Shown here: in pieces, positions 1 to 33,182 of the stretch
Layout: every line of letters starts with the position of its first letter
Numbering within the stretch: position 1 is the stretch's first letter
Source of the DNA: a virus
Virus record (IMG/VR): IMGVR_UViG_3300047157_000061
DNA length: 33,182 nt
Reading direction: 5' to 3' (one strand)
Notes under the pieces: model-generated
Told to the model about the DNA's origin: nothing
The model's input: the letters and a program-made list of their open reading frames with translations, nothing else
The model's database searches: none
Translations under genes and position numbers: made by a program

Positions 1-145
1 GTCTAACTTATCTGCGTCTGCTAACTCAGAGTACGTGAGATTGGAAGCAAGTAAGGATATACTTGATCGAGCTGGAATAAAACAGGATCAATCGGACACA
101 AAGTCACTAGGTAATGCTATCCAAGTTAACATAGACCTTGGGTAA
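1..145 (+). CDS. terS: 3' end of terS (partial, duplicate copy inside the terminal repeat)
   Basis: Identical to 32957..33101. It ends at the same TAA (143-145) and encodes ...SNLSASANSEYVRLEASKDILDRAGIKQDQSDTKSLGNAIQVNIDLG. Confidence 0.75.
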   Translation, partial: SNLSASANSEYVRLEASKDILDRAGIKQDQSDTKSLGNAIQVNIDLG

Positions 146-226
146 ATTATGGTGCAGTGCTGTGTATACAAGATAAAGTTAAATATAGGTAGGGGTTCAA
201 AAGTTACAGATTAATTAAGAGCAACA
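1..226. repeat. Terminal direct repeat, left copy; exact duplicate of 32957..33182 (assembly overlap of a circular or circularly permuted genome, or terminal redundancy)
   Basis: Base-by-base reading: gtctaacttatctgcgtctgctaactcagag...ttaattaagagcaaca occurs at 1-226 and again at 32957-33182 with no mismatch that I could see. Confidence 0.9.
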
Positions 227-300
227 GGACTACCTCACGTAAAATAGCTTTACAAAAGTCCCAACATATTTTATACCTACCTGTAAGGAAAGGATAAGCT

Positions 301-555
301 ATGACAATAAAGAAAGATATGAAGAAGGCACAAACATCCTTTGGTCAGTTAGGTTATAAATCTCACCATGATATAGAACGTAGGTTAAAAAAAATTAACT
401 TATCTAAACCAGCTGGTGTAGTAGGTGCTGTAGGTGTTGGTGCTTATATTAAAGAAGGTATAGATGCAGTAAGAAATCAACTACAAGATGCTAAACGATT
501 AAGAGAGAAAAGAGAAAAAGAAACTAACAAAATAATAAATAAAGGAGTAAAGTAA
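301..555 (+). CDS. Hypothetical small protein, basic with a central Gly/Val/Ala hydrophobic segment
   Basis: 84-aa ORF with AAGGAAAGGA upstream of the ATG. It has a hydrophobic stretch PAGVVGAVGVGAYI and a K/R/E-rich C-terminus. Its stop overlaps the next start (TAATG at 553-557). Confidence 0.55.
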   Translation: MTIKKDMKKAQTSFGQLGYKSHHDIERRLKKINLSKPAGVVGAVGVGAYIKEGIDAVRNQLQDAKRLREKREKETNKIINKGVK

Positions 556-686
556 TGCCAGGAACTATGAAATCATACGGAACTGTAGGTAAGAAGAAAC
601 CTAAAAAGAAACCAGTAAAACTCTCACTAAATTCTTTCAACAACAAAGCACAGAAAAATAAGAAGGCTAAAAGAACGTATGGCTAA
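555..686 (+). CDS. Lys-rich micro-protein (43 aa)
   Basis: Hand-translated, below the ORF-track cutoff: MPGTMKSYGTVGKKKPKKKPVKLSLNSFNNKAQKNKKAKRTYG. AGGAG lies 7 nt upstream. Its start overlaps the previous stop and its stop overlaps the next start. Confidence 0.45.
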   Translation: MPGTMKSYGTVGKKKPKKKPVKLSLNSFNNKAQKNKKAKRTYG

Positions 687-837
687 ACTATGTGCAAAGG
701 GTAAGTCTGCCGCTAAAAGAAAATTTAAAGTATACCCAAGTGCTTATGCTAATATGTATGCTTCTGGTGTTTGCTCTGGTAGGATCAAGCCAAAGTCTGC
801 CAAGAAAAAAACATCTAAGAAAAGGAAACGTGCATGA
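679..837 (+). CDS. Basic micro-protein (52 aa) with YPSAYAN...C.G motif
   Basis: Hand-translated: MAKLCAKGKSAAKRKFKVYPSAYANMYASGVCSGRIKPKSAKKKTSKKRKRA. It overlaps both neighbours (ATGGCTAA at 679-686, ATGA at 834-837). I recall the motif from uncharacterised marine-phage proteins, but this is unverified. Confidence 0.45.
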   Translation: MAKLCAKGKSAAKRKFKVYPSAYANMYASGVCSGRIKPKSAKKKTSKKRKRA

Positions 838-953
838 CCATAACTCCTGAACTAATAGAAACAATACACAACATATCTTGGTTTGATGGTATCTGTTATA
901 TTTTTTTAGGTCTGGGGGTATATGCTTTATATAGATGGATACGTAGGATATGA
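834..953 (+). CDS. Small single-pass membrane peptide (39 aa)
   Basis: Hand-translated: MTITPELIETIHNISWFDGICYIFLGLGVYALYRWIRRI. It has one hydrophobic helix followed by RWIRR. AAGGAAA is upstream, and there are ATGA overlaps at both ends. Confidence 0.4.
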   Translation: MTITPELIETIHNISWFDGICYIFLGLGVYALYRWIRRI

Positions 954-1213
954 GTTTACGTAAATGGGTTGGTGAGAAGTGGGTTGATATTGGAGCACCA
1001 AAGAAGAATGGTAAGTATCAACCATGTGGTAGAAGCAAAGGATCTAAACGTAAGTATCCTAAATGTGTACCACTAGCTAAAGCAAAGCGAATGACATCAG
1101 CACAGAAGACATCAGCAGTAAAAAGAAAACGTAGTGTTAAACAAGGAGTGGGTGGTAAGCCTACTAATGTAGCAACCTTTAAAAGGAAAAAAAGAAATGG
1201 CAAAAACAGTTAA
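950..1213 (+). CDS. Highly basic small protein (87 aa; WVDIG...PCGR...YPKC motif)
   Basis: ORF-track ORF. By my count 28 of 87 residues are K/R and only 2 are acidic. The conserved-looking Cys/aromatic N-terminal half is followed by a K/R tail. The antisense ORF 1018..1203 is judged spurious. Confidence 0.6.
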   Translation: MSLRKWVGEKWVDIGAPKKNGKYQPCGRSKGSKRKYPKCVPLAKAKRMTSAQKTSAVKRKRSVKQGVGGKPTNVATFKRKKRNGKNS

Positions 1214-1373
1214 ACATTATTTAAGAGATGGTACAGTACATACTGGTGCTATGCATAAAATGTCTAATGGTAAATTACATACTGGTAAAACACATACCAA
1301 ATCTAGTAAGCCATTATTCCATTTAAAAGATTTATCAATGACTGCTAAAAAGAAAGTAAAAGCAAATGGCTAA
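1197..1373 (+). CDS. His/Lys-rich micro-protein (58 aa)
   Basis: Hand-translated: MAKTVKHYLRDGTVHTGAMHKMSNGKLHTGKTHTKSSKPLFHLKDLSMTAKKKVKANG. It contains a duplicated DG/NG-x-hydrophobic-HTG motif and overlaps both neighbours. Confidence 0.45.
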   Translation: MAKTVKHYLRDGTVHTGAMHKMSNGKLHTGKTHTKSSKPLFHLKDLSMTAKKKVKANG

Positions 1374-1632
1374 ATCACCAGCATGGACAAGAAAAGAAGG
1401 CAAGAATCCTAAAGGTGGATTAAATGCTAAAGGTCGTGCTAGTTATAATAAAGGTCGTACCAAGACTGGTAAGAAAAGAAATCTAAAAGCACCGAGCAAA
1501 GTAGTAGGCAATAAAAGACGTGCTTCGTTTTGTGCAAGGATGAAAGGTATGAAGAAGAAGTTAACGAGTAAGAAGACAGCTCGTGATCCTAATTCAAGAA
1601 TAAATAAATCTTTACGTGCTTGGAACTGTTAG
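1366..1632 (+). CDS. Highly basic small protein (88 aa; SFCARM...W.C motif)
   Basis: ORF-track ORF. About 29 of 88 residues are K/R and 2 are acidic. Motifs are AWTRKEGKNPKGGLNAKGR, RRASFCARMKGM and a C-terminal RAWNC. Confidence 0.6.
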   Translation: MAKSPAWTRKEGKNPKGGLNAKGRASYNKGRTKTGKKRNLKAPSKVVGNKRRASFCARMKGMKKKLTSKKTARDPNSRINKSLRAWNC

Positions 1633-1652
1633 TGTATACCATTAATTATAAG

Positions 1653-1793
1653 ATGGAGTTTAAATCAAGACCAAGTAAATATGAAGTTCAATGTAGATTA
1701 TGGGATCTATTAGCTAAAGGTTTTACTCTACGCACACCAGAAGAAGATGCAGAGTATAAAAAATTTATAGAGGAGAAAAATGTTTATACGTGA
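1653..1793 (+). CDS. Hypothetical micro-protein (46 aa)
   Basis: Hand-translated: MEFKSRPSKYEVQCRLWDLLAKGFTLRTPEEDAEYKKFIEEKNVYT. It fills the gap between flanking genes and overlaps the next start. There is no clear SD. Confidence 0.3.
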   Translation: MEFKSRPSKYEVQCRLWDLLAKGFTLRTPEEDAEYKKFIEEKNVYT

Positions 1794-1968
1794 ACTATCT
1801 TTAAAAGATTTAAATAGACTACGTTCTATTGTACGTAATACTCATTTAAAATTTTACCCTAATGAGTTTATGACTAACGTAGAAGTTGATAAGTTTATAA
1901 ATGCAGTCGGTCCAGAACTAGCTGGTAAGATGATCCGATACGCAGTAGACAACAAACAAGTCGAATGA
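1780..1968 (+). CDS. Hypothetical protein (62 aa)
   Basis: ORF with GAGGAG upstream. Its stop overlaps the terL start (ATGA at 1965-1968). Confidence 0.55.
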   Translation: MFIRELSLKDLNRLRSIVRNTHLKFYPNEFMTNVEVDKFINAVGPELAGKMIRYAVDNKQVE

Positions 1969-3497
1969 AATTAAATTACAAACCTGATGGTGCAGTAGTA
2001 AAAAGTTTTATGAAAGACAATAGTTTCTTTCGTGGACTACGTGGACCAGTAGGCTCTGGTAAATCTGTTGCTTGTTGTATAGAAGTATTCCGTAGAGCCT
2101 TAGCACAGAAACCATCACCAGATGGCATACGTAAATCTCGTGTAGCTATTATAAGAAATACAAACCCACAGTTAAAGACTACGACTATGAAGACATGGTT
2201 AGATTGGTTTCCTGAAAAAGAGTTTGGTAAAATGAATTGGTCACCACCCTATACACATAGAATACAAGTAGGTGATGTAGACTTAGAAGTAATTTTTCTG
2301 GCTTTGGATAGACCAGAAGATGTTAAGAAGTTATTATCTTTAGAATTAACATTCCTTTTCTTTAATGAAAGCAGAGAAATAGCCAAGCCAATTATAGATG
2401 CTGGCACTATGCGTGTAGGAAGATACCCTTCTATGAAAGATGGTGGACCAACTTGGTATGGTGTTATAGCAGATACCAACGCACCAGACGAAGATCATTG
2501 GTGGAGTGTGATGAGTGGAGATGCACCACCACCAGAACATCTATCACGAGAAGAAGTTATGATGTTAGTCAAACCTGACAACTGGAAATTTTTTACACAA
2601 CCACCAGGTATGTTAGAAAAAAGAAACTCAGATCAAGAAGTAGAAAACTATATAAATAATCCAGATGCAGAGAATAGAAACAATCTAATGCGAGATTACT
2701 ATTCTTCTATTATTAGAGGAAAGACAAAGTCATGGATTGATGTGTATGTAATGAATAGATTAGGTTCAATCGAAGATGGTAAACCTGTATACAAACAATT
2801 TGCTTCAGACTTACACGTTGCCAAGCAACCAATAATACCAGCAGAAGTTCCATACTATATAGGTATCGACTTTGGTTTAACTCCAGCTTGTGTATTTGCA
2901 CAACAAGTCCGAGGGAGATGGTTAATACTACACGAGATCGTAGCACAAGATATGGGTATGGTGCGATTTGGGGAACTACTTAGACAAGAGATGGTAAGTA
3001 AATTTCCCAACATACCAGTAGCACGAATATTTGGAGATCCAGCTGGAGATTATCGAGCACAGACTGATGAGTCTACTCCATTCCAAATACTACGTGGTGC
3101 TGGTATTCGTGCCATTCCAGCACCATCCAATGATGTATCGTTAAGAATAGAATCTGTAACTGCACCATTGATGCGATTGTTAGAAGGTAAGTCAGGTATA
3201 TTAATTGATAAAAGTTGTAAACATTTAATTAAAGGATTTGAAGGTGGTTATCAGTACAAACGTATGCAAGTATCTGGTGAACGATACACAGAAAAACCAG
3301 ACAAGAATCACTACTCACACGTACATGACGCACTACAATATTTATTATTAGGTGCTGGAGAAGGTAGGCAGATTACTAAGAGTTCTATTACTAGCAAAGT
3401 AGTACAAGCAAAAACTAATTTTGATGTCTTTACAAAAGCACCAAAAAAGAGTATACGAAAGAAGTGGAACGTATTCGATATTAGATCAAGATTATAG
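1965..3497 (+). CDS. terL: Terminase large subunit
   Basis: 510 aa. It has an N-terminal Walker A (GLRGPVGSGKS) and a Walker B-like LTFLFFNESRE. The C-terminal half carries RNase H-like nuclease acidic motifs (YYIGIDFG, FGDPAGD, HVHDALQY). It sits just upstream of the portal. Confidence 0.9.
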   Translation: MKLNYKPDGAVVKSFMKDNSFFRGLRGPVGSGKSVACCIEVFRRALAQKPSPDGIRKSRVAIIRNTNPQLKTTTMKTWLDWFPEKEFGKMNWSPPYTHRIQVGDVDLEVIFLALDRPEDVKKLLSLELTFLFFNESREIAKPIIDAGTMRVGRYPSMKDGGPTWYGVIADTNAPDEDHWWSVMSGDAPPPEHLSREEVMMLVKPDNWKFFTQPPGMLEKRNSDQEVENYINNPDAENRNNLMRDYYSSIIRGKTKSWIDVYVMNRLGSIEDGKPVYKQFASDLHVAKQPIIPAEVPYYIGIDFGLTPACVFAQQVRGRWLILHEIVAQDMGMVRFGELLRQEMVSKFPNIPVARIFGDPAGDYRAQTDESTPFQILRGAGIRAIPAPSNDVSLRIESVTAPLMRLLEGKSGILIDKSCKHLIKGFEGGYQYKRMQVSGERYTEKPDKNHYSHVHDALQYLLLGAGEGRQITKSSITSKVVQAKTNFDVFTKAPKKSIRKKWNVFDIRSRL

Positions 3498-5510: not shown

Positions 5511-5760
5511 TATAGATGGAATACGTAGAAGTACTGAACAAGAAAAAAGATTAAATGAAACTTTATTATCTTGTTTTGTAACTGATGCTGGAATGTTAAC
5601 ACTTAAATATTTAAGATCTATTACTATAGAAAGTGTAGCTGGATTTAATATATCTGATCAAGAGTTAAGAGCAAGAGAAGGTATGAGATTTCTAGTTGGT
5701 ATTATTGAACAACGAATAAAGGAAGGTAAAAATGAGCGAGCAAGAAAGCCTAATAAATAG
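5482..5760 (+). CDS. Hypothetical head-module protein (92 aa)
   Basis: ORF overlapping the portal 3' end by 29 nt and the scaffold start by 29 nt. The sequence looks globular (LRAREGMRFLVGIIEQRIKEG). Confidence 0.5.
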   Translation: MMDKKLPQVSIDGIRRSTEQEKRLNETLLSCFVTDAGMLTLKYLRSITIESVAGFNISDQELRAREGMRFLVGIIEQRIKEGKNERARKPNK

Positions 5761-6442
5761 CGAACAAGAAGTAAAAGATGAAGTAGGAGAAGTAGCAGAA
5801 AGACCAGAATGGTTACCAGAGAAGTTTTTTAAAGATGGTAACCCTGATTATGAAGGACTAGCAAAGTCTTATACTGAAGCTGAAACTTATATTGGTAAGA
5901 AAAAAGAAGACTTAACTACAGAAATAAAGACACAATTAGAAGAAGAAACTCTTAAAGCTGTACCTGAAACTTATGTATTACCAGAAATACCAGACACATA
6001 TGAAACAGAAACACCTCTTATGGATGGATGGAAAACTTATTGTAAAGATAATAAACTAAGTCAAGAAGCATTTGATAAAGGAATAGACTTATTTATACAA
6101 AGCCAACCACAAGTAGATATAGATGGTGAAAAGAAAAAGCTAGGTGAAAATGCAAATCAACGTATTGAAGCTGTAAGTTTGTGGGTAAATAAAAACTTTG
6201 ATGAAGGACAAAGACCTATGTTAGAAATGATGTGTTCTACTTCACAAGGTGTAGAAGCAGTAGAAAAAATTATGGGTATGTTACAAAATAGTATGTCACA
6301 AACTACAGATAATTTTATTGCTGGTAAAACAAAAGAAGACTTACAAGAGATGATGAAGGACAGAAGATATTGGCACGCACCTAGTAGAGATGAAACTTAT
6401 ATAAGACAGATAGACTCAGCATTTGAAAAATTATATAAATGA
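5732..6442 (+). CDS. Scaffolding protein (candidate)
   Basis: 236 aa, acidic and E/K/Q-rich with a helical appearance. It lies between portal and major capsid. AAGGAAGG is upstream. Confidence 0.55.
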   Translation: MSEQESLINSEQEVKDEVGEVAERPEWLPEKFFKDGNPDYEGLAKSYTEAETYIGKKKEDLTTEIKTQLEEETLKAVPETYVLPEIPDTYETETPLMDGWKTYCKDNKLSQEAFDKGIDLFIQSQPQVDIDGEKKKLGENANQRIEAVSLWVNKNFDEGQRPMLEMMCSTSQGVEAVEKIMGMLQNSMSQTTDNFIAGKTKEDLQEMMKDRRYWHAPSRDETYIRQIDSAFEKLYK

Positions 6443-23103: not shown

Positions 23104-23214
23104 ATGATAGCTATTAAAAAAATTTATCAAAAGATTAAAGAAAGATTGTTTGGTAAGTTATGCAAATGCAAACCTAAGAAACGAGGTAGACCCCCTAAGA
23201 AAAGACCTTTCTAA
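23104..23214 (+). CDS. AT-hook-containing micro-protein (36 aa)
   Basis: Hand-translated: MIAIKKIYQKIKERLFGKLCKCKPKKRGRPPKKRPF, with an RGRP core flanked by K/R. AAGAGG is upstream, and its stop overlaps the next start (TAATG). Confidence 0.4.
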   Translation: MIAIKKIYQKIKERLFGKLCKCKPKKRGRPPKKRPF

Positions 23215-32101: not shown

Positions 32102-32690
32102 TGTAGTTTCCTTTTGTTAAATTTAAGATGAGTTCGTTAAACTGTATTATTATTCCATAGGTCAAACATATTATGGGGGTGACTGCTCAGGCTGTTTGAG
32201 ATTTCTTGGAAAAGAAAGGGCGAATCAAAATAGGGCGAAGCACAATAAAATATCGCACCATATAATAGTTAGGAAAGAAATCTACAAAAGACTAGAGTAG
32301 GGGGATCTATAATATGTTTGATAATTATATAGGGCGATAGCACGTTTGAACCTATTTTAATAATACAGTATAACGATACCGAATCTATATTTTACAAAAG
32401 GAAATGGAAATGACGTTAAGAAACAAATACAAAATTAAATCACAAAGCTGGGGTTCTCTATCCTCTACCCTCTATGCACTTGGAAGCATTGTCCTAAATT
32501 ATGCTTTAATTTAGCCATGAACGGAGTGGATATATAGCTAGGTCATGAGGAGGTGATTACCATATAGAATTATGTATAATAAAAACGAACACTCGAGGAC
32601 TGATTGAAGCCTTTTGGTCGAGACAACGTCTCGATGCTTGCACGAAAGCACCCTCGAAACCCAGCAAAACATAGGTGTCAAATTATTTAC

Positions 32691-32729: not shown

Positions 32730-33101
32730 ATGGACAGCAAAACCACACAACTCACAACAAGACAACAGGCATTTATTGATAACCTATTAACAAATGGTGG
32801 TACTGCAACACAATGTGCGATCAAAGCTGGATACAGTCCCAAATCAGCCAAGGTCGAAGCAAGTCGCTTACTCAAGCATGACAAGGTGTTGAAGCAACTA
32901 CAGACACAAGCAATGAAGACACTCGGATACAGATCAATACAAGCATTGGATACAGTGTCTAACTTATCTGCGTCTGCTAACTCAGAGTACGTGAGATTGG
33001 AAGCAAGTAAGGATATACTTGATCGAGCTGGAATAAAACAGGATCAATCGGACACAAAGTCACTAGGTAATGCTATCCAAGTTAACATAGACCTTGGGTA
33101 A
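32730..33101 (+). CDS. terS: Terminase small subunit
   Basis: 123 aa. LTTRQQAFIDNLLTNGGTATQCAIKAGYSPKSAKVEASRLLKHDKV is the classic terminase small subunit HTH signature. The 3' third lies in the terminal repeat. Confidence 0.8.
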   Translation: MDSKTTQLTTRQQAFIDNLLTNGGTATQCAIKAGYSPKSAKVEASRLLKHDKVLKQLQTQAMKTLGYRSIQALDTVSNLSASANSEYVRLEASKDILDRAGIKQDQSDTKSLGNAIQVNIDLG

Positions 33102-33182
33102 ATTATGGTGCAGTGCTGTGTATACAAGATAAAGTTAAATATAGGTAGGGGTTCAAAAGTTACAGATTAATTAAGAGCAACA
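32957..33182. repeat. Terminal direct repeat, right copy (exact duplicate of 1..226)
   Basis: See the left copy. Confidence 0.9.

What the first reader, a model, noticed from the sequence alone, without database searches (positions are those of the whole stretch)
146..1964. A 1.8-kb cluster of ten tiny overlapping ORFs, mostly extremely Lys/Arg-rich, sits between terS and terL
terS and terL are normally adjacent. Here (reading across the circular junction) they are separated by ten short + strand ORFs chained by start/stop overlaps, at 553-557, 679-686, 834-837, 950-953, 1197-1213, 1366-1373, 1780-1793 and 1965-1968. Four of these are below the ORF-track cutoff and were found only by hand translation. 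At least five (555..686, 679..837, 950..1213, 1197..1373, 1366..1632) are about one-third K/R with almost no acidic residues. By my count this is 28/87 and 29/88 K/R in the two largest, with 2 D/E each. They are not simple low-complexity sequence. They carry distinct Cys/aromatic motifs: YPSAYAN..C.G; WVDIG..PCGR..YPKC; a duplicated G-x-hydrophobic-HTG; and SFCARM...RAWNC. Because they lie in the packaging part of the late operon, one possibility is that they are co-packaged DNA-charge-neutralising or condensing proteins, or ejected nucleic-acid-binding proteins. That would be functionally analogous to adenovirus protein VII or T4 internal proteins. This is inference only. I recall similar motifs in uncharacterised marine phage and giant-virus proteins, but I know of no assigned function.
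Basis: partly seen in the sequence, partly recalled or inferred. Interest (0 to 1): 0.72.

Follow-up and report, generated by a model that had tools for sequence, protein, structure and literature searches.

The report
Tiny basic phage proteins beside terminase
A marine SAR11-type phage carries, between its two DNA-packaging genes, a chain of real and conserved mini-genes for very positively charged proteins. The same protein modules occur fused into one larger protein that has been detected in purified particles of ocean cyanobacterial viruses, so they are probably packed in the virus head with the DNA, though this has not been tested in this phage.

Summary
Nine + strand ORFs (301-1968) fill the terS-terL gap and are chained by the reported overlaps. 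The K/R counts are exact, and purifying selection matches that on terL. They are not decay fragments.

- **Family assignments.** O7 is a free-standing DUF6321 domain. O3 plus O5 together equal DUF5872, split here by a 39-aa membrane mini-ORF.
- **Fused form in cyanomyoviruses.** O5-, O3- and O7-like modules are joined in one protein (T4-GC119), encoded beside terS. It was detected by mass spectrometry in purified S-SM1 virions, and its S-SCSM1 homologue is deposited as a virion protein.
- **Cleavage-type motif.** In the fused forms each module is preceded by hydrophobic-x-Glu, the T4 prohead-protease site type. The free-standing forms, in a phage where no prohead protease was found, lack it.
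- **Variable island.** In 42 related contigs the gap ranges from 0.3 to 3.4 kb and is mostly filled with small basic proteins. This resembles the known g15-g18 hyperplastic region of cyanomyoviruses.

My best reading, at confidence 0.5, is that these are accessory, head-internal, DNA-associated basic proteins. Virion presence and DNA binding are untested for this phage. Not every ORF fits: O4 is membrane-like, O8 is acidic, and O9 is a conserved terL-coupled core gene.

The parts
32730..33101 (+). terS (small terminase, 123 aa). Its 3' end is duplicated at 1-145 by the 226-bp terminal overlap.
   Evidence: Pfam Terminase_2 3e-13; PHROG terS families. Overlap shown.
146..300 (.). Non-coding spacer after terS. 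The 21-aa ORF at 149-214 is not supported.
   Evidence: No ORF of at least 30 aa; weak promoter-like site at 126-153 only; no terminator.
301..555 (+). O1, 84 aa. Moderately basic (K/R 0.25, D/E 0.11) with a Gly/Ala/Val-rich hydrophobic centre. Variably present in relatives.
   Evidence: Absent from the fetched close relatives. Exact protein seen on 34 contigs. No family hit.
555..686 (+). O2, 43 aa. Lys-rich, no acidic residues, pI 10.8.
   Evidence: 53-63% identical in L004-L006, dN/dS 0.12-0.23. Exact protein on 59 contigs.
679..837 (+). O3, 52 aa. The 'YPSAYAN' module with a Cys pair. It corresponds to the N-terminal half of DUF5872.
   Evidence: phrog_27331 3e-23. Fused to an O5-like module in P0227 and P0151. 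hhalign to the cyanomyovirus O3-like module: 81%, E 1e-5, core motif only. dN/dS 0.02-0.16.
834..953 (+). O4, 39 aa. Hydrophobic, membrane-like mini-protein. A whole-ORF cassette inserted between O3 and O5 with ATGA overlaps on both sides.
   Evidence: Present in L003, L006, L007, L008 and absent in L004, L005, where O3 and O5 overlap directly by ATGA. dN/dS about 0.1.
950..1213 (+). O5, 87 aa. The 'KWVDIG..PCGR..YPKC..NVAT' module. It corresponds to the C-terminal half of DUF5872.
   Evidence: phrog_23735 1e-37. DUF5872 at 16.7 bits, below the cut-off. More than 7000 homologues. hhalign to the cyanomyovirus N-terminal module: 96.8%, E 3e-10, over 69 columns. dN/dS 0.07-0.12.
1197..1373 (+). 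O6, 58 aa. His-rich module with a duplicated G-x-hydrophobic-H-(T/S)-G motif.
   Evidence: Family F4 occurs in 20 of 42 related gaps. Homologues in Roseobacter phages CRP-902 and CRP-207, next to an O3-like gene. dN/dS 0.13-0.27.
1366..1632 (+). O7, 88 aa. A free-standing DUF6321 domain with a Cys pair (SFCARM...RAWNC).
   Evidence: Pfam PF19846 1.3e-18, 67.8 bits. 2293 clusters at 50% identity; usually the C-terminal domain of proteins of 82-1228 aa. 60-75% identical to the C-terminus of P-SSM2 PSSM2_123, Syn9 gp114 and S-SCSM1 gp29. AlphaFold2 pLDDT 74.6, four helices.
1653..1793 (+). O8, 46 aa (ATG start). Balanced charge. Variably present.
   Evidence: 45-52% identical in L004 and L005, dN/dS 0.24-0.51. 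uvMED homologues.
1780..1968 (+). O9, 62 aa. Non-basic core gene, ATGA-coupled to terL. Not part of the basic-protein set.
   Evidence: Family F2 in 35 of 42 loci and the only gap ORF in 4 loci. dN/dS 0.11-0.21.
1965..3497 (+). terL (large terminase, 510 aa).
   Evidence: 66% identical to the Hodr orthologue. The identical or near-identical protein is named 'large subunit terminase' in uvMED records.
23104..23214 (+). The only other strongly basic mini-ORF in the genome (36 aa, K/R 0.42), near the end of the late operon. Possible further member; not verified.

Best explanation
The terS-terL gap of this pelagiphage-type podovirus is a variable island within the late (packaging and morphogenesis) operon. 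It carries free-standing, translationally coupled genes for a modular set of small, highly basic mini-proteins, each with a Cys pair: O2, O3, O5, O6 and O7.

O3, O5 and O7 are the same modules that T4-like cyanophages join into one protein (T4-GC119), which has been found in purified virions.

I propose that these proteins are made late and enter the head. There they sit with the packaged DNA as protein counter-ions or condensers, and possibly leave with the DNA at infection. In cyanomyoviruses they would be delivered as a polyprotein cut by the prohead protease at hydrophobic-x-Glu sites. In this phage, where no prohead protease was found, each module is its own gene.

**Shown:** the genes are real and under selection; the modules are homologous and occur both split and fused; the fused homologue is virion-associated; the cleavage-type motif is present at module boundaries.

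**Inferred:** cleavage itself; head location in this phage; DNA binding; any route of entry into the procapsid. One possible route is association with the acidic 236-aa protein encoded at 5732-6442, pI 4.5.
For: 1. **Real genes.** dN/dS is 0.02-0.27 compared with 0.09-0.12 for terL. Exact sequences recur on 3-60 contigs.
2. **Late-operon setting.** There is no internal terminator or strong promoter, and the ORFs are chained by start/stop overlaps.
3. **Modularity.**
   - P0227 and P0151 fuse O3 and O5 into DUF5872.
   - P0010 fuses another gap module to DUF6321.
   - P-SSM2 PSSM2_123, Syn9 gp114 and S-SCSM1 gp29 contain O5-like, CWxGY, O3-like and DUF6321 modules in one chain.
   - O7 is 60-75% identical to their C-termini.
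   - O5: hhalign 96.8%, E 3e-10. O3: 81%, E 1e-5. Cross-module controls score 0.1% or less.
4. **Virion evidence for the fused form.**
   - T4-GC119 is listed as 'Structural protein', detected in S-SM1 virions with 13 peptide counts (PMC3037559, Table S8 and File S1).
   - Its coordinates match the proteins analysed here.
   - S-SCSM1 gp29 is deposited as 'virion protein' by authors who ran MS on CsCl-purified virions.
5. **Boundary motif.**
   - Glu sits at -1 in 125 of 166 distinct contexts upstream of DUF6321, and V/I/L/M at -3 in 106 of 166.
   - After clustering the contexts, 41 of 94 groups carry [LIVMF]-x-E exactly at -3 to -1. The background per position is 1.8%.
   - Similar motifs precede the CWxGY, O3-like and O5-like modules.
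   - T4 gp21 cuts after L/I-x-E (PMC9026906).
   - Free-standing and pelagiphage-type fusions have Lys at -1.
   - PHROG scans of 20 late-operon ORFs identify a T7-like structural module and return no protease family.
   - Cyanomyoviruses lack gp67 and gp68, the T4 core proteins (PMC2984593). gp67 is annotated in the Sullivan 2010 supplement as the precursor to internal peptides.
6. **Gene position.** DUF6321 genes lie in late or structural regions in seven lineages:
   - between terS and terL here and in P-HM1 and Syn9;
   - beside gp16 in P-SSM2;
   - upstream of terL in MEP401;
   - after the capsid gene in P-SCSP1 and HTVC115P;
   - between portal and capsid in HTVC027P.
7. **A universal partner is implied.** Conservation is 75-80% across phages of cyanobacteria, SAR11 and Methylophilales, while the capsid proteins differ. 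This suggests a ligand such as DNA.
8. **Physical character.** Net charge is extreme, and the chains are mostly predicted disordered with short hairpins. The two DUF6321 cysteines are both present (116 cases) or both absent (5 cases).
Against: - No proteomic or structural data exist for any pelagiphage. The P-SCSP1u cryo-EM paper contains no match for 'mass spectrometry', 'gp14' or 'gp15'.
- Syn9 virions gave no peptides for its homologue gp114.
- Basic proteins can stick to virions or DNA and co-purify with them.
- Four of 42 relatives have no such genes in the gap, and S-PM2 lacks T4-GC119. The function is therefore dispensable or replaceable.
- In Greip and HTVC034P the DUF6321 gene lies in a tail-end cluster after lysis-type genes, not beside head genes.
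- Sullivan et al. treat T4-GC119 as part of a possible mobile cassette alongside metabolic genes, so gene position alone is weak evidence.
- Cleavage at the hydrophobic-x-Glu sites has never been shown. Linkers are Glu-rich and many of the sequences are related.
- No known DNA-binding domain or fold was detected.
- How small proteins would enter a T7-like procapsid is unknown.
Confidence: 0.5

Rival explanations
1. The proteins are made late and bind nucleic acid inside the infected cell but are not packaged. For example, they might compact or organise concatemeric DNA for the terminase, or shut down the host nucleoid or RNA.
For: They sit between terS and terL and are co-translated with them. 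They carry extreme positive charge and are predicted disordered. Syn9 virions gave no peptides. Small DNA-bound proteins are unlikely to pass the portal alongside the DNA (general knowledge).
Against: The fused homologue was detected in S-SM1 virions and its S-SCSM1 homologue is deposited as a virion protein. Protease-type motifs at module boundaries only make sense inside a prohead. Conserved Cys pairs fit a role outside the reducing cytoplasm better, though this is an inference.
Confidence: 0.2
2. The gap is simply a permissive insertion hotspot, like the cyanomyovirus g15-g18 hyperplastic region. It collects unrelated small accessory genes with no shared role, and the basic composition reflects several independent functions such as anti-defence or regulation.
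For: Gap content varies from 1 to 12 ORFs across 42 relatives, forming 82 sequence clusters. Membrane-like (O4), acidic (O8) and large acidic proteins are mixed in. Whole-ORF indels occur. The hyperplastic region in cyanomyoviruses also carries metabolic genes.
Against: The same few basic families (DUF6321, F1, O6-like F4, F5, O3, O5, F25) recur together in unrelated phage lineages: MEP401, Greip, CRP-902 and HTVC027P. They are physically fused to one another in many proteins. Five of the six strongly basic ORFs of the genome are concentrated here.
Confidence: 0.2
3. The mini-proteins mimic or bind host translation or RNA machinery, acting like ribosomal-protein-like basic peptides, and so alter host gene expression.
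For: Their size, charge and disorder resemble small ribosomal proteins. The SFCARM stretch looks superficially like the GFRARM stretch of bL34; this is my recollection and was not tested. High conservation across hosts would fit a conserved host machine.
Against: There is no Pfam ribosomal hit beyond noise and no PDB sequence or fold match. DUF5872 also occurs in an algal giant virus whose host has a different ribosome. The virion detection is left unexplained.
Confidence: 0.05
4. The ORFs are frame-shifted remnants of a decayed larger gene of the cyanomyovirus type.
For: The modules do occur fused in larger proteins.
Against: Each ORF has its own ATG and start/stop coupling. dN/dS is comparable with terL. 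Module order differs from the fused forms: O3-O5-O7 here against O5-CWxGY-O3-O7 in P-SSM2. The same split arrangement is kept in HTVC027P and in six close relatives. There are thousands of free-standing homologues of the same length.
Confidence: 0.03

Closest known systems
Cyanomyovirus T4-GC119 (P-SSM2 PSSM2_123, Syn9 gp114, P-HM1 PHM1_110, S-SCSM1 gp29; 'DUF6321 domain-containing protein')
   Same: It contains O5-like, O3-like and O7-like modules. It is encoded beside terS or between terS and terL. It is very basic and mostly predicted disordered. It is virion-associated in S-SM1 and S-SCSM1.
   Different: It is a single polypeptide of 230-990 aa with extra modules (CWxGY and others) and hydrophobic-x-Glu motifs at the boundaries. 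Here the modules are separate genes in a different order, without those motifs, in a podovirus where no prohead protease was found.
Pfam DUF6321 (PF19846) and DUF5872 (PF19197)
   Same: O7 is a full-length DUF6321 match. O3 plus O5 together reproduce the 135-139 aa DUF5872 proteins at about 83-87% identity.
   Different: Both are families of unknown function. In this window DUF5872 is split into two genes by an inserted membrane mini-ORF, and O5 alone scores below the Pfam cut-off.
Phage T4 internal proteins (IPI, IPII, IPIII, Alt) and internal peptides derived from core proteins gp67, gp68 and gp22
   Same: The T4 proteins are small, dispensable proteins loaded into the prohead, cut by gp21 after L/I-x-E, kept with the DNA and partly ejected (PMC9026906). 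Cyanomyoviruses lack gp67 and gp68. The fused homologues carry matching motifs.
   Different: There is no sequence similarity and no N-terminal capsid-targeting sequence. Processing and ejection have not been shown. In this window no protease was found and each module is a separate gene.
Adenovirus core proteins VII, V and Mu (pX)
   Same: These are Arg/Lys-rich proteins that neutralise and condense packaged dsDNA, several of them released from precursors by the viral protease (established knowledge).
   Different: They belong to a eukaryotic virus and show no homology. They are major stoichiometric components, whereas these phage genes are accessory and variably present.
Hyperplastic g15-g18 region of marine cyanomyoviruses (Millard et al. 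2009, as cited in PMC2984593 and PMC3037559)
   Same: It is a hypervariable insertion zone around the terminase genes inside an otherwise conserved structural module. The terS-terL gap of this pelagiphage lineage behaves the same way, ranging from 0.3 to 3.4 kb.
   Different: The cyanomyovirus region is known mainly for host-like metabolic genes. Here it holds almost only small basic proteins and a few acidic proteins of unknown function.
phiKZ, 201phi2-1 and SPN3US inner-body or ejection proteins
   Same: These are head-internal proteins processed after Glu by a gp21-like protease (PMC9026906).
   Different: They are large proteins of jumbo phages, not especially basic, and show no homology.

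Membership tests
Pfam DUF6321 (PF19846) | Match to the family HMM above the gathering score (28.5 bits) | tested here: met
   O7 (1366-1632): 67.8 bits, E 1.3e-18, profile positions 1-72 of 72. BFVD fold matches are only to DUF6321 proteins.
Pfam DUF5872 (PF19197) | Match to the family HMM above the gathering score (27.5 bits) | tested here: not met
   O5 alone scores 16.7 bits, E 0.012, covering profile positions 55-110 of 116. O3 has no hit.
Pfam DUF5872 (PF19197) | Both halves (YPSAYAN module followed by KWVDIG..PCGR..YPKC module) present | tested here: met
   P0227, P0151 and others (135-139 aa, precomputed PF19197) consist of an O3-like half joined to an O5-like half that is 83-87% identical to O5. 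In the window the halves are separate genes with O4 between them.
Cyanomyovirus T4-GC119 structural protein | Homologous modules (O5-like, O3-like, DUF6321) | tested here: met
   O7: 60-75% identity, E 1e-25 to 1e-36. O5: hhalign 96.8%, E 3e-10. O3: 81%, E 1e-5, over 13 columns only.
Cyanomyovirus T4-GC119 structural protein | Single multi-module polypeptide | tested here: not met
   Separate ORFs, each with its own start and stop.
Cyanomyovirus T4-GC119 structural protein | Presence in purified virions | not testable with these tools
   Reported for S-SM1 (13 peptide counts). S-SCSM1 gp29 is deposited as a virion protein. Not detected in Syn9. No data for this phage or any pelagiphage.
T4-type internal head proteins and peptides | Processing by a prohead protease at (L/I)-x-E | tested here: not met
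   No prohead-protease family appears among the PHROG hits for 20 late-operon ORFs of the window. The free-standing forms have Lys, not Glu, before the domain. The motif is present in the cyanomyovirus fused homologues, but cleavage itself is unproven.
T4-type internal head proteins and peptides | N-terminal capsid-targeting sequence, and incorporation into the prohead core | not tested
   I made no comparison with T4 internal-protein sequences. Localisation cannot be tested with these tools.
Adenovirus-type DNA-condensing core proteins (functional class) | Binding and condensation of the packaged genome | not testable with these tools
   Only composition (K/R 0.32-0.35, pI up to 11.9) and predicted disorder speak to this.

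The most novel reading that the evidence does not exclude
Many abundant ocean phages (pelagiphages, cyanophages, and phages of Methylophilales and Roseobacter), and possibly algal giant viruses, would share an interchangeable set of protamine-like mini-domains, perhaps disulfide-stapled, that travel inside the capsid as protein counter-ions for the DNA. T4-like cyanophages would supply them as a polyprotein that the prohead protease cuts at hydrophobic-x-Glu sites, taking the place of the missing gp67 and gp68. Podoviruses without such a protease would encode every module as its own translationally coupled gene next to the terminase. A further speculation is that this compensates for scarce polyamines or divalent cations in streamlined marine hosts.
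Probability: 0.3. Interest if true: 0.8.

Novelty: new variant of a known kind. Interest (0 to 1): 0.62.

Why it matters
DUF6321 and DUF5872 rank among the most widespread uncharacterised protein families of marine viruses. Each has more than 7000 clusters at 90% identity, and DUF6321 has 2293 clusters at 50% identity. They occur in viruses of the ocean's most abundant bacteria.

This analysis links the free-standing mini-genes to a protein detected in virions and points to a candidate processing signal. That turns 'hypothetical protein' into a concrete hypothesis: protein counter-ions or internal proteins packaged with the DNA.

The hypothesis can be tested with existing isolates and even with mass-spectrometry data already published. 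If it holds, marine phage capsids would contain a protein cargo that affects DNA packing density, particle stability in seawater and possibly the first moments of infection.

It would also give a clear example of one function encoded either as a protease-cut polyprotein or as separate genes, depending on whether the phage has a maturation protease. If it fails, the region is still a well-defined hypervariable island that is useful for annotating metagenomic phage genomes.

Tried and rejected
- **PDB sequence search.** phmmer of O7 and O5 against all PDB chains at E up to 10 gave no hits.
- **Fold search.** Foldseek of the O7 model against PDB gave 0 hits. Against BFVD it matched only DUF6321 proteins.
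- **AlphaFold2 on the 273-aa cyanophage fusion.** Mean pLDDT was 54, too low for fold search. It is informative only as 'mostly disordered with short hairpins'.
- **Narrow HMMs.** HMMs built from pelagiphage-type O5 and O3 sequences did not separate cyanomyovirus modules from shuffled controls (15.3 against 15.2 bits; 8.5 against 7.5 bits). Profile-profile comparison was needed.
- **Pairwise BLASTP.** O3 and O5 against the cyanomyovirus proteins gave only weak E-values.
- **Family scans of nine other gap families from relatives.** Pfam gave nothing. PHROGs gave only unknown-function families and one weak hit (E 0.005) to a 'minor head protein and DNA pilot' profile, which I did not rely on.
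- **Long DUF6321 proteins.** Pfam found only DUF3008 and sub-threshold peptidase and dockerin hits, so there was no informative enzymatic fusion partner.
- **Literature.**
  - No paper mentions DUF6321, and DUF5872 appears only in a gene list.
  - The P-SCSP1u cryo-EM paper contains no match for 'mass spectrometry', 'gp14' or 'gp15'.
  - The S-SCSM1 supplement does not mark MS detection per ORF, so I rely on the depositors' product name.
- **S-PM2.** It has no T4-GC119 in g15-g17, so the protein is not universal in cyanomyoviruses.
- **RNA features.** Rfam and tRNA scans of the whole window found nothing.
- **Decayed-gene idea.** Rejected on selection, module order and conservation.

Full report
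**What the window is**

The 33,182-bp window has a 226-bp terminal direct overlap (1-226 = 32957-33182). It is therefore a circularly assembled small phage genome. Its closest cultured relative is Pelagibacter phage EXVC031P Hodr, at 71% nucleotide identity from terL to the capsid region. Identical or near-identical proteins occur on many Tara Oceans and uvMED (uncultured Mediterranean phage) contigs of about 33-35 kb.

The + strand carries one long late operon:
- terS (32730-33101; Terminase_2);
- the small-ORF cluster;
- terL (1965-3497);
- portal, an internal-virion-protein-like ORF, and the major capsid protein;
- tail tube A and B;
- T7-type internal virion proteins, tail fibres and a holin.

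The PHROG scans returned no prohead-protease family for any of the 20 late-operon ORFs tested. Early genes lie on the - strand.

**Checking the observation**

I count nine credible genes. For convenience I call them O1 to O9: 301-555, 555-686, 679-837, 834-953, 950-1213, 1197-1373, 1366-1632, 1653-1793 and 1780-1968. The only candidate for a tenth is a 21-aa ORF at 149-214, for which I found no support and which I did not test separately.

The genes are not chance ORFs:
- Against six close relatives from IMG/VR (terL 82-90% identical), dN/dS is 0.02-0.16 for O3, about 0.1 for O4, 0.07-0.12 for O5, 0.13-0.27 for O6, 0.04-0.19 for O7 and 0.11-0.21 for O9. For terL it is 0.09-0.12.
- O1, O4, O6 and O8 come and go as whole ORFs. 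O4 is inserted precisely between O3 and O5 with an ATGA overlap on each side. Relatives without O4 have O3 and O5 overlapping by ATGA directly.
- No terminator and no strong promoter lies inside the chain.
- Across the whole genome, 5 of the 6 ORFs with K/R of at least 0.22 and D/E of at most 0.06 lie in this gap. None of the small early-region ORFs qualifies.

**The gap is a variable island**

In the 42 related loci that contain both terS and terL, the gap ranges from 292 bp to 3412 bp. At the short end it holds only an O9-like 64-aa gene. At the long end it holds up to 12 ORFs, most of them small, basic and poor in acidic residues.

Clustering these ORFs gave recurring families:
- DUF6321 in 25 loci;
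- family F1 in 26 loci;
- the O6-like family F4 in 20 loci;
- family F5 in 16 loci;
- the O9-like family F2 in 35 loci.

The premise that terS and terL are normally adjacent does not hold for this lineage. It does not hold for marine cyanomyoviruses either, where a hypervariable region around g16 and g17 is documented (PMC2984593; PMC3037559). Syn9 shows it directly, with about 7 kb of genes between gp16 and gp17.

**What the proteins are**

O7 is a complete DUF6321 domain (PF19846, 67.8 bits). This domain is very widespread:
- more than 8000 clusters at 90% identity;
- 2293 representatives at 50% identity;
- 487 phage records, all from aquatic hosts: Synechococcus, Prochlorococcus, Pelagibacter, Methylophilales, Microcystis and Planktothrix.

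In the representative set the domain stays 75-80% identical while the carrier proteins range from 82 to 1228 aa. The domain almost always sits at the C-terminus. The long carriers are K/E-rich, low-complexity chains with a few other domains of unknown function.

O5 (phrog_23735) has more than 7000 homologues. Among them, 135-139 aa proteins such as P0227 and P0151 begin with an O3-type sequence (MGKLCPRGKAAAKRKFDVYPSAYANMYASAVCSGK...). They continue, after a Lys linker, with an O5-type sequence, and they are annotated as DUF5872. So O3 plus O5 is a DUF5872 protein split into two genes. DUF5872 is also listed in an algal giant virus.

Other fusions seen include an F1 module joined to DUF6321 (P0010) and O5 joined to a further module.

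The same order, O3 then O5 then a short Lys-rich ORF then DUF6321, occurs in the unrelated 57.6-kb pelagiphage HTVC027P between the portal and capsid genes. This shows that the set moves as a cassette.

**The link to cyanomyoviruses**

tblastn placed DUF6321 at the C-terminus of larger proteins in T4-like cyanophages:
- P-SSM2 PSSM2_123 (271 aa), between gp15 and gp16;
- Syn9 gp114 (443 aa) and P-HM1 PHM1_110 (233 aa), between gp16 (terS) and gp17 (terL);
- S-SCSM1 gp29 (517 aa), three genes upstream of terL.

Their sequences contain, in one chain:
- an O5-like module (SLHDWF..GWV..PC..PKC..NVAT);
- a CWxGY..PNC module;
- an O3-like module (DACYKKVKSRYSVWPSAYASGALVKC);
- DUF6321.

The strength of the homology differs by module. 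O7 matches at 60-75% identity. O5 is supported by profile-profile comparison at 96.8% probability, E 3e-10, over 69 columns. O3 is supported more weakly, at 81%, E 1e-5, over a 13-residue core. Cross-module controls score 0.1% or less. Simple HMMs and BLASTP were not sufficient for O3 and O5.

Module order differs from the window, so the window's ORFs are not frame-shifted remnants of such a gene.

**Virion evidence**

Sullivan et al. 2010 (PMC3037559) analysed purified S-SM1 virions. Their Table S8 lists T4-GC119 as 'Structural protein', detected with 13 peptide counts. It is not present in S-PM2, and it is annotated in Syn9 but with no peptides detected there. Their File S1 gives T4-GC119 coordinates that are exactly the proteins above: P-SSM2 105913-106728, P-HM1 102140-102841 and S-SSM7 190797-193781.

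Independently, S-SCSM1 gp29 is deposited as 'virion protein' by authors who identified 45 virion proteins by MS of CsCl-purified particles. I could not see the per-ORF MS table.

That makes one documented detection, one deposited virion annotation and one non-detection. There are no data for any podovirus carrier.

**A candidate processing signal**

In 166 distinct sequence contexts where DUF6321 has at least 12 residues upstream, the residue just before the domain is Glu in 125. The residue at -3 is V, I, L or M in 106, and the first domain residue is G, S or A in 148.

After grouping the upstream contexts into 94 clusters, 60 have Glu at -1. Forty-one have [LIVMF]-x-E exactly at -3 to -1, against a background of 1.8% per position in the same proteins. 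Hydrophobic-x-Glu also precedes the CWxGY, O3-like and O5-like modules.

The predicted new N-termini coincide with natural N-termini of variants in which that module comes first. For example, 'E|ANKSGD..' matches 'M-ANKSGD..' of P-SSM2, and 'E|GAAWTKK' matches 'MAKSPAWTRK' of O7.

T4 gp21 cleaves head proteins after L/I-x-E (PMC9026906). Cyanomyoviruses lack gp67 and gp68, the T4 prohead core proteins (PMC2984593); gp67 is annotated as the precursor to internal peptides in the Sullivan 2010 supplement. Free-standing forms and pelagiphage-type fusions have Lys at -1, and no prohead protease was found in the window phage.

This fits a picture in which the function is a polyprotein where a protease exists and separate genes where it does not. 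Cleavage itself is inference: linkers are Glu-rich, and many of the sequences share ancestry.

**Structure**

AlphaFold2 on a 273-aa cyanophage fusion, with 75 sequences in the alignment, gave mean pLDDT 54. It shows long disordered stretches, a beta-hairpin in the CWxGY module, a helical hairpin in the O3-like module and three helices in the DUF6321 C-terminal half. O7 alone gave pLDDT 74.6 with four helices.

There is no PDB match by sequence or fold, and BFVD matches are limited to the family itself.

Each module has exactly two conserved cysteines. In DUF6321 the two cysteines are both present in 116 variants, both absent in 5 and singly absent in 1. This fits a disulfide or a shared metal site, though the double loss may be a single evolutionary event.

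**Genomic context elsewhere**

DUF6321 genes lie in these positions:
- upstream of terL in Methylophilales phage MEP401, alongside F1-type and His/Lys-rich mini-genes;
- after the capsid gene in cyanopodovirus P-SCSP1 and pelagiphage HTVC115P;
- between portal and capsid in HTVC027P;
- in a terminal cluster of small ORFs after lysis-type genes in Greip and HTVC034P.

Roseobacter phage CRP-902 has adjacent O3-like and O6-like mini-genes.

The genes are therefore always on the late-operon strand and often, but not always, next to head or packaging genes.

**Interpretation**

The best-supported reading, at confidence about 0.5, is that O2, O3, O5, O6 and O7 are accessory, late-expressed, head-associated basic proteins that sit with the packaged DNA. 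In kind they would be analogous to T4 internal proteins and peptides or to adenovirus core proteins.

The very high conservation of DUF6321 across phages with unrelated capsids and hosts points to a universal ligand such as DNA. This is an inference.

Several things count against this reading:
- There are no pelagiphage virion data.
- Syn9 virions gave no peptides.
- The genes are dispensable: 4 of 42 relatives lack them in the gap, and S-PM2 lacks T4-GC119.
- Basic proteins are sticky in virion preparations.
- The route of entry into a T7-like procapsid is unknown.

The rival readings are an intracellular DNA or RNA-binding role (0.2), a heterogeneous accessory-gene hotspot without a shared function (0.2), ribosome or RNA mimicry (0.05) and gene decay (0.03).

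O4 (membrane-like), O8 (acidic) and O9 (a core gene coupled to terL) should not be lumped with the basic set.

**Novelty and score**

The families are catalogued as domains of unknown function, and the genes are annotated as hypothetical. I found no paper that discusses them.

What is new here:
- the split and fused relationships: DUF5872 equals O3 plus O5, and T4-GC119 contains O5-, O3- and O7-like modules;
- the link to published virion proteomes;
- the protease-type motif at module boundaries;
- the recognition of a terS-terL variable island in this pelagiphage lineage.

I rate it a new variant of a known kind (phage internal basic proteins), with interest 0.62. The strongest untested version, a pan-marine set of packaged protein counter-ions, has probability about 0.3 and would deserve about 0.8.

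Noticed in passing
window 32107-32404: Six concentric inverted-repeat arm pairs (11-19 nt, 79-100% complementary) form a roughly 300-bp imperfect palindrome. It lies in the 630-bp non-coding region between the divergent early and late operons. It may be an origin or a bidirectional control region. There is no Rfam or tRNA hit.
   Followed up: partly
window 1-226 and 32957-33182: An exact 226-bp terminal direct repeat cuts through the 3' end of terS. It is most simply an assembly overlap of a circular or permuted genome and not a true terminal repeat.
   Followed up: partly
window 1780-1968 (O9): A 62-aa non-basic protein is conserved immediately upstream of terL and ATGA-coupled to it in 35 of 42 related loci. 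It is the only gap gene in 4 loci. It has no family hit. It is a candidate terminase-associated core protein of this lineage.
   Followed up: partly
window 23104-23214: A 36-aa ORF with K/R 0.42 (MIAIKKIYQKIKERLFGKLCKCKPKKRGRPPKKRPF) lies between a tail-fibre-assembly-like gene and the holin region. It is the only strongly basic ORF outside the terS-terL gap.
   Followed up: no
L089 3501-3752 (Pelagibacter phage Greip gp45): This gene is annotated 'RecA-like recombination protein (Gp114...)' but is an 83-aa DUF6321 protein. It looks like a propagated mis-annotation, possibly traceable to Syn9 gp114.
   Followed up: partly
proteins P0491, P0366 (long DUF6321 carriers): A repeated motif Y-E/Q-P-E-G-E-[LIMQ]-[VI]-x-E-G recurs before modules in proteins of 700-960 aa. 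It may represent reiterated protease sites or a separate linker signal.
   Followed up: no
related loci, e.g. L017 1001-1783, L013 533-1666, L065 3204-4310: Many relatives carry an acidic protein of 260-510 aa (families F6, F11, F26) directly after terS and ahead of the basic mini-genes. These have no Pfam or PHROG hit.
   Followed up: partly
L094 209-3193 (S-SSM7 SSSM7_236): This is a 994-aa T4-GC119 member in which DUF6321 is internal and not C-terminal. The gene lies away from the terminase genes, next to hemagglutinin-like and NAD synthetase genes.
   Followed up: no
L092 3117-4674 (Roseobacter phage CRP-902 gp70-gp67): A free-standing O3-like gene of the cyanophage type, an O6-like gene and a basic 'HVA1 family' protein with an RRSNFRARH motif sit together. 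This shows that the mini-protein set extends to roseophages.
   Followed up: partly
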